A DNA stretch of 64,000 bases from Escherichia coli (GTDB taxonomy: Bacteria > Pseudomonadota > Gammaproteobacteria > Enterobacterales > Enterobacteriaceae): the NCBI RefSeq assembly GCF_003334335.1, contig NZ_QOWQ01000014.1; one strand, 5' to 3'. A model generated the notes under the pieces. The model had not been told where the DNA came from. It ran no database searches and worked only from the letters and a program-made list of their open reading frames with translations. Shown one piece after another: positions 58,304-58,372 of the stretch (positions are counted from its first letter, which is position 1; the number at the start of each line of letters is the position of its first letter). Made by a program: the position numbers and the translations under genes.

Positions 58304-58324
58304 TTATCCGTAAGTATTTTATCT

Positions 58325-58356
58325 GCCATTCCCTCTATGAATGTAGAGGGAATGGC
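58325..58356 (+). other. perfect 12-bp stem-loop between der and yfgJ
   Basis: gccattccctct / agagggaatggc with 8-nt loop atgaatgt; no U-tract; ends 4 nt before the yfgJ GGAGG RBS (58361-58365). Confidence 0.5.
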
Positions 58357-58372
58357 TACCGGAGGAATTCAT

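What the first reader, a model, noticed from the sequence alone, without database searches (positions are those of the whole stretch)
58304..58372. Perfect 12-bp palindrome in the der-yfgJ spacer without a U-tract
Seen directly: gccattccctct(atgaatgt)agagggaatggc at 58325-58356 begins 21 nt after the der stop and ends 4 nt before the yfgJ Shine-Dalgarno. It is not a canonical intrinsic terminator (no T-run) and not a REP element. Possible roles are a 3' stabiliser for der mRNA, a processing site, or a structure controlling access to the yfgJ RBS.
Basis: seen in the sequence. Interest (0 to 1): 0.3.

Follow-up and report, generated by a model that had tools for sequence, protein, structure and literature searches.

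The report
Conserved non-terminating RNA hairpin after der
The palindrome between the E. coli genes der and yfgJ is a real, evolutionarily maintained RNA stem-loop that sits where related bacteria have der's transcription terminator but lacks the U-run needed to stop RNA polymerase; this is an ordinary kind of intercistronic hairpin, not a new type of element.

Summary
The perfect inverted repeat has 13-bp arms (58325-58337 / 58344-58356) and a 6-nt loop. It lies 21 nt after the der stop and 4 nt before the yfgJ SD. It has no T-run, occurs once per genome and has no Rfam match.

It is far beyond chance: 0 of 60 window shuffles gave a hairpin of 13 bp or more, and the fold z-score is -7.9.

It is maintained as RNA on the der→yfgJ strand:
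- A second, about 50-67% identical E. coli allele of the spacer and Trabulsiella and Enterobacter relatives keep the stem: 7 of 13 pairs show compensatory double changes and 98% of cells are paired.
- G·U pairs favour the sense strand.

Across 84 Enterobacterales loci, der is almost always followed by a hairpin. A canonical T-run is present in 60/64 loci where yfgJ is absent or distant, but in only 6/20 where yfgJ starts within 70 nt.

Best reading (confidence ~0.45): a read-through-permissive counterpart of the der terminator that allows der-yfgJ co-transcription and probably acts as a 3' exonuclease barrier.

In the K-12-type allele only, it also caps a predicted longer helix that pairs the yfgJ SD and AUG.

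Published Term-seq lists no 3' end here, so the function remains inferred. Interest is low; it is a new member of a known kind.

The parts
56831..58303 (+). der (ribosome-biogenesis GTPase) coding sequence; stop codon TAA at 58301-58303
   Evidence: RefSeq annotation of MG1655 mapped to the window (genome coordinate = 2694187 - window coordinate); ORF list
58304..58324 (+). AU-rich 21-nt segment between the der stop and the stem. In the K-12-type allele, 58307-58324 is predicted to pair with the yfgJ SD/AUG region.
   Evidence: Sequence. Base-pair probabilities of 0.42-1.0 (most 0.84 or higher) persist in contexts up to 58200-58500. The motif TTATCTG just before the stem is shared with the second E. 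coli allele.
58325..58337 (+). 5' arm of the hairpin, GCCATTCCCTCTA (pyrimidine-rich)
   Evidence: the repeat finder I2. Invariant in all sampled E. coli of this allele. The core TTCCCT is shared with the alternative allele.
58338..58343 (+). Loop TGAATG. As RNA, U58338·G58343 can add a 14th pair, leaving the loop GAAU.
   Evidence: a loop G>A variant is seen in O166:H15
58344..58356 (+). 3' arm of the hairpin, TAGAGGGAATGGC (purine-rich, SD-like GAGGGAAU). All stem variation sampled within the species lies in this arm.
58357..58377 (+). Linker TACC, then the yfgJ Shine-Dalgarno GGAGG (58361-58365) and start codon ATG (58373-58375). Positions 58361-58377 are predicted to pair with 58307-58324, forming a basal extension of the hairpin.
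   Evidence: The flank-to-start-region pairing exceeds 191 of 200 flank shuffles.
58373..58588 (+). yfgJ (71-aa zinc-ribbon protein of unknown function). Its last 4 nt overlap the convergent xseA gene.
   Evidence: RefSeq annotation; identical to PDB 2jne residues 31-101

Best explanation
**What it is.** The element is an RNA stem-loop on the der→yfgJ transcript. It is the counterpart, without a U-run, of the intrinsic terminator that follows der in most Enterobacterales.

**How it most likely works.**
- Because the 3' tail is UACCGGAG rather than a U-run, RNA polymerase is not released. It reads through into yfgJ, whose SD begins 4 nt after the stem, leaving no room for a separate promoter. 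der and yfgJ are therefore co-transcribed. The transcript ends by Rho-dependent termination about 90 nt past yfgJ, inside antisense xseA.
- The stem is retained by selection. Its most likely job is post-transcriptional: a roughly -24 kcal/mol barrier to 3'→5' exonucleases. This would protect the essential der message once the unstructured, Rho-generated 3' end and the yfgJ segment are degraded, and so would set the der:yfgJ expression ratio.

**Shown here.**
- The hairpin exists and is far beyond chance.
- It lacks a T-run.
- It is conserved with compensatory changes.
- It is biased to the sense strand.
- Absence of a T-run is associated with close yfgJ linkage.

**Inferred.** Read-through, the exonuclease-barrier role and the effect on expression ratio are all inferences.
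For: 1. **Positional equivalence.** In 84 loci, der is almost always followed by a GC-rich hairpin 5-40 nt after its stop. A canonical T-run follows in 60 of 64 loci where yfgJ is absent or more than 70 nt away, but in only 6 of 20 where yfgJ starts within 70 nt (Fisher p = 3e-8, not corrected for phylogeny).
2. **Separate units where there is room.** Where the spacer is longer (L034, L047, L067), a T-run terminator is followed by a TGnTATAAT-like extended -10 before yfgJ. Those species have separate transcription units.
3. **Stability.** All 20 short spacers fold better than dinucleotide shuffles (median z = -3.5). The stems without a U-run are more stable (mean -17.7 kcal/mol) than the canonical terminators (mean -13.4 kcal/mol).
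4. **Selection on pairing.** In an ungapped alignment of K-12-type, sinH-type, Trabulsiella and Enterobacter hairpins:
   - 98.1% of cells are paired.
   - 7 of 13 pairs carry double compensatory changes.
   - The covariation score is 0.69 against 0.25 in shuffles (0 of 500 reach it).
   - Slid registers give 45-65% paired.

   Within the sinH-type allele, all sampled E. coli stem changes are A/G or C/U transitions that interconvert Watson-Crick and wobble pairs, while the linker next to the stem varies freely.
5. **Sense-strand RNA.** 14 of 20 hairpins are more stable as sense RNA and 2 of 20 as antisense, with G·U pairs in 12 of 20. The control set of canonical terminators splits 23 to 23.
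6. **Read-through.** No sigma-70-like promoter lies between 58150 and 58375. Adams et al. 2021 report a Rho termination region on this strand at MG1655 2635510, 89 nt past the yfgJ stop, and no Term-seq 3' end at the hairpin.
Against: - The curated Term-seq tables of Adams et al. 2021 (LB OD 0.4, LB OD 2.0, M63) list no 3' end at MG1655 26358xx on either strand. A strong decay barrier would be expected to leave one. The tables hold only the most abundant ends and der is weakly expressed, so this is weak negative evidence.
- The hairpin is not kept perfect. Of E. coli genomes with this allele, 62% lack the identical spacer, and four of the five variants I sampled carry a bulge or mismatch in the 3' arm, so maximal stability is not required.
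- The compensatory-change alignment was built from sequences each chosen because it folds, which inflates the percentage paired.
- The association between the T-run and yfgJ linkage is not phylogenetically independent.
- No experiment on der or yfgJ mRNA ends, half-lives or operon structure was found.
Confidence: 0.45

Rival explanations
1. **Translational gate or coupling device for yfgJ (K-12-type allele).** The 13-bp hairpin acts as a clamp. It brings the 18 nt that follow the der stop (58307-58324) next to the yfgJ SD and AUG (58361-58377), so the whole 71-nt spacer forms one long imperfect helix that hides the yfgJ start. A ribosome terminating at the der stop covers about 10 nt downstream. 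It would therefore melt the basal helix (58307-58312 : 58372-58377) and free the AUG, so yfgJ would be translated only when der is.
For: - The minimum-free-energy and ensemble structures pair AUGG with CCGU at probability 1.0, and most SD and spacer nucleotides at probabilities up to 0.89.
- This holds in contexts from 97 to 301 nt.
- The unpaired probability is about 0.2 for the SD and 0.0 for the AUG.
- Expected flank-to-start-region base pairs are 13.4, against 8.4 ± 2.8 for shuffled flanks; 9 of 200 shuffles reach the observed value.
- The basal helix lies within reach of a ribosome stopped at the der stop codon (inference from ribosome footprint size).
Against: - The pairing is not conserved. 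Only 1 of the other 19 tightly linked loci (L030) shows more flank-to-start-region pairing than shuffles.
- Deleting the hairpin in silico does not change SD accessibility in most loci.
- The hairpin is conserved where this pairing is absent, so the pairing cannot explain that conservation.
- The flanks are invariant within E. coli, so no covariation test is possible.
- The evidence is prediction only.
Confidence: 0.2
2. **5'-end protector or processing module for a separate yfgJ mRNA.** RNase E cuts in the AU-rich single-stranded stretch after the der stop, or a weak promoter fires there. The hairpin then sits near the new 5' end and shields yfgJ mRNA from 5'-end-dependent decay. The hairpin would belong functionally to yfgJ rather than to der.
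For: - The hairpin and yfgJ are inherited together. Homology between the two E. coli alleles breaks exactly at the der stop, so the spacer and yfgJ form one cassette.
- The motif UUAUCUG directly 5' of the stem is shared by both alleles.
- A weak -10-like AATAAT lies at 58299-58304 (8 of 12 matches to the two promoter hexamers combined).
- yfgJ expression across E. coli isolates associates with upstream non-coding variants (bioRxiv 10.1101/2025.06.10.658842).
Against: - No promoter reaches the usual consensus threshold.
- No start-site or cleavage data were found.
- In relatives lacking yfgJ, the same position carries der's own terminator, which ties the hairpin to der.
- No RNase III site is listed for this locus in the supplementary files held for Gordon et al. 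2017.
Confidence: 0.12
3. **Weak or factor-assisted transcription terminator or pause site.** It would release or stall a fraction of polymerases after der despite the missing U-run, attenuating yfgJ.
For: - It has the same position and shape as der terminators in relatives.
- Six tightly linked loci do keep a T-run directly before the yfgJ SD (L031, L033, L064, L078, L007, and marginally L024). Attenuation of yfgJ by a terminator therefore exists in this gene pair.
Against: - Only 1 T occurs in the 8 nt after the stem, and the tail is GC-rich. By established knowledge of intrinsic termination in E. coli, the U-run is required.
- No Term-seq 3' end is listed there in three conditions.
- The Rho-sensitive drop in coverage on this strand lies after yfgJ, not at the hairpin.
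Confidence: 0.08
4. **DNA-level or antisense-strand feature.** It could be a protein operator, a cruciform, or a 3'-end hairpin for the convergent xseA transcript, which reads antisense through yfgJ and the palindrome.
For: - The K-12-type palindrome is nearly as stable on the antisense strand (-22.4 against -23.8 kcal/mol).
- Adams et al. report a strong Rho termination region on the xseA strand at 2635920, 58 nt beyond the palindrome.
- xseA-yfgJ is listed as an overlapping convergent pair (PMC12288877).
Against: - The hairpin is kept in the sinH-type allele and in other genera where xseA is not adjacent.
- G·U pairs make most homologues less stable on the antisense strand.
- The stem sequence differs completely between genera, which does not fit a sequence-specific operator.
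- No 3' end on that strand is listed at 26358xx.
Confidence: 0.05

Closest known systems
Intrinsic (Rho-independent) terminator of der in other Enterobacterales (e.g. Citrobacter, Klebsiella, Enterobacter, E. albertii)
   Same: It occupies the same position a few to about 40 nt after the der stop, on the same strand, and is a GC-containing stem-loop.
   Different: It has no U-run (1 T in 8 nt, against 7-8 in those terminators). The stem is longer and more stable. yfgJ's SD follows 4 nt later. No Term-seq 3' end is listed.
Intercistronic mRNA-stabilising hairpins (malE-malF REP stem-loops in E. coli; the puf operon intercistronic hairpin of Rhodobacter capsulatus). Recalled from the literature, not tested here.
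   Same: It is a stable stem-loop between two co-transcribed cistrons. It does not terminate transcription and could block 3' exonucleases, giving a higher level of the upstream message.
   Different: It is single-copy and unrelated in sequence to REP. No accumulation of an upstream RNA species ending at the stem has been shown.
Stem-loops at the processed 3' ends of Rho-terminated transcripts (Dar & Sorek 2018, as cited in Adams et al. 2021, PMC7815308)
   Same: The transcript is Rho-terminated downstream, and a stable hairpin lies upstream where trimming would stop.
   Different: The hairpin is about 320 nt upstream of the Rho region, with a whole translated gene in between. No processed end is reported at it.
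Translational coupling through long-range secondary structure (e.g. rpmI-rplT in the infC operon; the MS2 coat-replicase interaction). Recalled, not tested here.
   Same: In the K-12-type allele, the downstream gene's SD and AUG are predicted to pair with sequence just after the upstream stop codon.
   Different: The pairing is predicted only, is specific to one allele and is not conserved in relatives.

Membership tests
Canonical intrinsic terminator | GC-rich stem-loop of about 5-14 bp | tested here: met
   13-14 bp stem, -25 kcal/mol
Canonical intrinsic terminator | U-run (at least 5 U in 8 nt) starting 0-2 nt after the stem | tested here: not met
   The tail is TACCGGAG, 1 T in 8. The scan found no terminator-like site.
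Canonical intrinsic terminator | Mapped RNA 3' end at the U-run | tested here: not met
   No 3' end at MG1655 26358xx in the curated Term-seq tables of Adams et al. 2021, three conditions, files not truncated. Weak test: the tables hold only abundant ends.
REP / BIME repeated extragenic palindromes | Many dispersed copies per genome with a shared consensus | tested here: not met
   3669 places in 3665 genomes, median 1 per genome. Only one copy in the window.
Curated RNA families (Rfam 15) | Match to a covariance model at or near the gathering score | tested here: not met
   Only a chance-level P9 match elsewhere (E = 2.8, 15.7 bits against a gathering score of 43)
Intercistronic decay-barrier (mRNA-stabilising) hairpin | Stable, evolutionarily maintained stem-loop on the sense strand between two same-strand cistrons, without termination signals | tested here: met
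Intercistronic decay-barrier (mRNA-stabilising) hairpin | Upstream mRNA segment accumulates with its 3' end at the base of the stem | tested here: inconclusive
   Not listed in the Adams et al. tables, but der is weakly expressed and only abundant ends are listed. Other data sets had no held supplements.
Intercistronic decay-barrier (mRNA-stabilising) hairpin | Stem mutations shorten the upstream mRNA half-life; effect depends on PNPase or RNase II | not testable with these tools
   Needs experiments
RBS-sequestering translational operator / coupling structure | SD and/or start codon base-paired in the favoured structure | tested here: met
   K-12-type allele only: unpaired probability about 0.2 for the SD and 0.0 for the AUG, with the partners at 58307-58324
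RBS-sequestering translational operator / coupling structure | That pairing is conserved or covaries in relatives | tested here: not met
   Only the window and L030, out of 20 loci, exceed flank shuffles. The flanks are invariant within E. coli.
RNase III processing site | About 20 bp or more of coaxial duplex and a mapped RNase III-dependent cleavage | tested here: inconclusive
   A predicted extended helix of about 28 pairs with internal loops. No entry for this locus in the held supplements of Gordon et al. 2017. The supplements of Altuvia et al. 2018 are not held.

The most novel reading that the evidence does not exclude
In the K-12-type allele, the perfect hairpin would be the clamp of a 71-nt bipartite helix. 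That helix makes translation of the orphan zinc-ribbon protein YfgJ strictly dependent on ribosomes finishing der. This would tie YfgJ's dosage, and possibly its function, to the ribosome-assembly GTPase Der. A more speculative variant is that YfgJ itself binds the conserved CCCUCU/AGAGGG stem and autoregulates. The evidence does not exclude either reading: the pairing is strongly predicted and lies within reach of the terminating ribosome, and the hairpin and yfgJ are inherited together.
Probability: 0.15. Interest if true: 0.45.

Novelty: new member of a known kind. Interest (0 to 1): 0.22.

Why it matters
Practically, it means that der and yfgJ in E. coli K-12 are most likely one transcription unit, separated by a structured spacer rather than by a terminator. 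This bears on operon annotation and on reading polar effects of der or yfgJ mutations.

The comparative series across Enterobacterales runs through three states:
- terminator plus promoter
- terminator alone
- hairpin without a U-run

It is a tidy natural example of how terminator strength is tuned when a small gene is docked behind an essential one.

Nothing here challenges current understanding. The function of YfgJ remains unknown, and the hairpin by itself does not reveal it.

Tried and rejected
- **Rfam** at a permissive E-value gave nothing relevant.
- **Promoter and terminator scans.** The consensus scan found no site on this strand. A relaxed promoter scan found only an 8-of-12 candidate.
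- **Published 3'-end, operon and RNase III maps.**
  - Only Adams et al. 2021 was informative.
  - No supplements were held for PMC9023263, PMC8848933, PMC6061677 or PMC6212723.
  - PMC12207403, PMC6131387 and PMC5371410 had no entry for this locus.
  - The SEnd-seq paper is not held.
- **Whole-spacer MAFFT/RNAalifold alignment** of 12 sequences put the arms out of register and gave a meaningless consensus. I replaced it with an ungapped alignment of hairpins only.
- **A first hairpin alignment** contained a typing error in one row. I redid it from sequence references.
- **General SD sequestration by the hairpin** was rejected as a conserved function.
- **Alternative pairing of the anti-SD-like 5' arm** with the true SD (5 bp, a mismatch, then 2 bp) was considered by hand. 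I rejected it as uncompetitive against a 13-bp stem.
- **An upstream in-frame ATG in the loop** (58337, 83-aa ORF) was rejected: it has no SD and is absent from the other allele.
- **The Salmonella locus** could not be fetched. The genome-collection scan returned only the 80 best of more than 553 loci, and the PDB chain 2jrp gives only a tagged sequence.

Full report
**1. The observation**

The window is E. coli K-12. Its + strand is the minus strand of MG1655, and genome coordinate = 2694187 - window coordinate. The gene positions are:

| Gene | Window coordinates | Strand |
|---|---|---|
| der | 56831-58303 | + |
| yfgJ | 58373-58588 | + |
| xseA (convergent) | 58585-59955 | - |

The repeat finder reports arms 58325-58337 (GCCATTCCCTCTA) and 58344-58356 (TAGAGGGAATGGC). 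They are 13 nt, 100% complementary and 6 nt apart.

As RNA the 42-nt segment folds at -25.0 kcal/mol, with z = -7.85 and 0 of 200 shuffles as stable. In 60 Markov shuffles of the whole window, no perfect hairpin of 13 bp or more appeared, and hairpins of 12 bp or more appeared 0.03 times per shuffle.

The tail after the stem is TACCGGAG. The scan finds no terminator-like or promoter-like site on this strand. No Rfam family matches. The sequence is single-copy in E. coli genomes.

**2. It is not kept perfect within E. coli**

Of 5426 complete genomes, 3665 carry this spacer type. Only 1403 are identical over the 69 nt.

In five sampled variants, every difference within the spacer and the first codons of yfgJ lies in the hairpin:
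- one loop G>A change
- otherwise a 1-nt deletion in the 3' arm that bulges a U, alone or with A>G (giving a U·G pair) or T>G changes

The stem survives in these variants at -17.6 to -19.1 kcal/mol.

**3. A second allele keeps the stem with a different sequence**

Roughly 1,750 of the 5,426 complete genomes (B2-type strains such as ABU 83972) match the query only up to the der stop; a direct search with this spacer type found it in 1,465 genomes. They carry a different yfgJ allele, followed by the sinH-sinI island.

Identity between the two alleles changes sharply along the locus:
- It is 97-100% through der.
- It falls to 50-67% exactly at the der stop and stays low (43-67%) through the first ~100 nt of yfgJ.
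- The two proteins are 63% identical.

That spacer has GGTTTCCCTTTCC-ACAC-GGAGAGGGAAACC at the same place. Within this allele the 5' arm is invariant. In the E. coli strains sampled, the 3' arm changes only by A/G or C/U transitions that swap Watson-Crick and wobble pairs; the related Escherichia species (L005) carries one A>T mismatch. The adjacent linker changes freely, including transversions and an indel.

**4. Compensatory changes**

I made an ungapped alignment of eight homologous hairpins. They all share the CCC...GGG core and come from K-12, O166:H15, three sinH-type E. coli, another Escherichia species, Trabulsiella and an Enterobacter MAG. The counts are:
- 98.1% of cells paired
- 7 of 13 pairs with double compensatory changes (20 cells)
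- covariation score 0.69, against 0.25 for shuffles (0 of 500 reach it)
- 45-65% paired in slid registers

Caveat: each sequence was chosen because it folds, so the percentage paired is inflated. The compensatory counts and the slid-register contrast are less affected.

**5. Which strand**

Fourteen of 20 der-yfgJ hairpins are more stable as sense RNA and two as antisense, and G·U pairs occur in 12. With the same procedure, the canonical der terminators split 23 to 23. Selection therefore acts on the der→yfgJ RNA, not on DNA or on the convergent transcript.

**6. Comparative anatomy**

I fetched 80 Enterobacterales loci around the der 3' end and read the 130 nt after the stop in each. Adding the window and the three E. 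coli loci L001-L003 gives 84.

Almost every species has a hairpin there. The presence of a canonical T-run depends on where yfgJ lies:

| yfgJ position | Loci with a canonical T-run site |
|---|---|
| Absent | 53 of 57 |
| More than 70 nt from the der stop | 7 of 7 |
| Within 70 nt of the der stop | 6 of 20 |

Fisher's exact test gives p = 3e-8, not corrected for phylogeny.

Further points:
- The hairpins without a T-run are more stable on average (-17.7 against -13.4 kcal/mol).
- All 20 short spacers fold better than shuffles (median z = -3.5).
- In longer spacers (L034, L047, L067), a TGnTATAAT-like extended -10 lies between the der terminator and the yfgJ SD.

The series reads as follows. 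Where there is room, der has a terminator and yfgJ has its own promoter. Where yfgJ is docked directly behind der, der is followed by a hairpin that cannot terminate.

**7. Published data**

In Adams et al. 2021 (PMC7815308), the curated Term-seq table for three conditions is held in full. It has no 3' end at 26358xx on either strand. The nearest 3' end on this strand is the strong bamB-der terminator at 2637422 (window 56765).

Their Rho-termination table, based on bicyclomycin treatment, gives two relevant regions:
- **2635510 (minus strand):** 89 nt past the yfgJ stop, Rho score 3.8.
- **2635920 (plus strand):** antisense within der, Rho score 11.2.

The method compares 800-nt windows, so its resolution is coarse.

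This fits transcription continuing from der through yfgJ and ending by Rho. It also shows that xseA transcripts cross the palindrome antisense.

The missing 3' end counts weakly against a strong decay barrier, because the tables list only abundant ends.

A preprint links yfgJ expression differences among isolates to upstream non-coding variants. This is consistent with the allele dimorphism but not specific to the hairpin.

**8. RBS access**

The hairpin itself ends 4 nt before the SD. In the K-12-type allele, the folding ensemble extends it:
- Positions 58307-58324 pair with 58361-58377. This includes UCU with GGA and AUUU with GAAU in the SD region, and CCGU with AUGG at the start codon.
- Pair probabilities are 0.42-1.0 (most 0.84 or higher) in contexts up to 301 nt.
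- The unpaired probability is about 0.2 for the SD and 0.0 for the AUG.

The basal helix lies within about 10 nt of the der stop, so a terminating ribosome could open it (inference).

This pairing exceeds flank shuffles only in the window (9 of 200 shuffles reach it) and in L030. It is absent in the other 18 loci. In-silico deletion of the hairpin rarely changes SD accessibility. It is therefore an allele-specific possibility, not the reason the hairpin is conserved.

**9. Verdict**

This is a real RNA stem-loop under selection. It is the read-through-permissive counterpart of the der terminator. Its most probable role is a 3' exonuclease barrier and expression-ratio setter within a der-yfgJ transcript (confidence about 0.45).

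The rival readings, with confidences, are:
- allele-specific translational gating of yfgJ (0.2)
- a 5' protector for a processed yfgJ mRNA (0.12)
- weak termination or pausing (0.08)
- DNA-level or antisense roles (0.05)

It is a new member of a known kind and of low general interest.

Noticed in passing
window 58304-58480; L001-L003, L091-L093: E. coli is dimorphic at this locus. 3665 genomes have the K-12-type spacer and yfgJ abutting xseA. At least 1465 have a spacer and yfgJ 5' half about 43-67% identical to it (63% protein identity), followed by the sinH-sinI island. Homology breaks exactly at the der stop codon.
   Followed up: partly
window 58585-58588: The yfgJ and convergent xseA coding sequences overlap by 4 nt (stop codons interlocked). 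There is no terminator between them. Adams et al. place Rho termination regions for each strand inside the other gene, and ExcludonFinder (PMC12288877) lists xseA-yfgJ as an overlapping pair.
   Followed up: partly
window 56735-56775: A canonical intrinsic terminator (GAAAACGGCTCC...GGGGCCGTTTTCCTGTTTTT) lies between bamB and der, 66 nt before the der ATG. It has a strong Term-seq 3' end in all three conditions (MG1655 2637422). der expression therefore needs read-through or a promoter in the last ~60 nt.
   Followed up: no
window 51063-51100: A 14-bp perfect palindrome with a 10-nt loop (CATTACGCCACGGT...ACCGTGGCGTAATG) starts 5 nt after the rlmN stop and is followed by TTTTAT. It is probably the rlmN terminator, with only a short U-run.
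   Followed up: no
window 40361-40392 and 40685-40712: Two near-identical palindromes (TAACTCTCTTTT-GCTTGACA-AAAAGAGAGTTA) lie 324 nt apart, each next to a strong terminator. They fall in the duplicated ryfA / IS128 (timR) small-RNA region; Rfam hits are at 40029-40332 and 40464-40672 on the minus strand. The loop contains TTGACA.
   Followed up: partly
L034, L047, L067 (about 50-85 nt after the der stop): In Kosakonia species and an unclassified Enterobacter isolate, a T-run der terminator is followed by a TGnTAT(A/G/C)AT extended -10-like motif and then the yfgJ SD. This suggests an independent yfgJ promoter in those lineages.
   Followed up: no
L063:2011-2060 (Superficieibacter): A 14-bp hairpin without a T-run is followed by TAACCGGAGAG. 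This resembles the K-12 tail TACCGGAGGA, but my pattern search found no yfgJ ORF. It may be a decayed or divergent yfgJ.
   Followed up: no
window 58344-58356; L001-L003:3132-3144: In both E. coli alleles the pyrimidine-rich 5' arm is invariant in every strain sampled, and all stem variation lies in the purine-rich 3' arm. The asymmetry is unexplained and the sample is small.
   Followed up: partly
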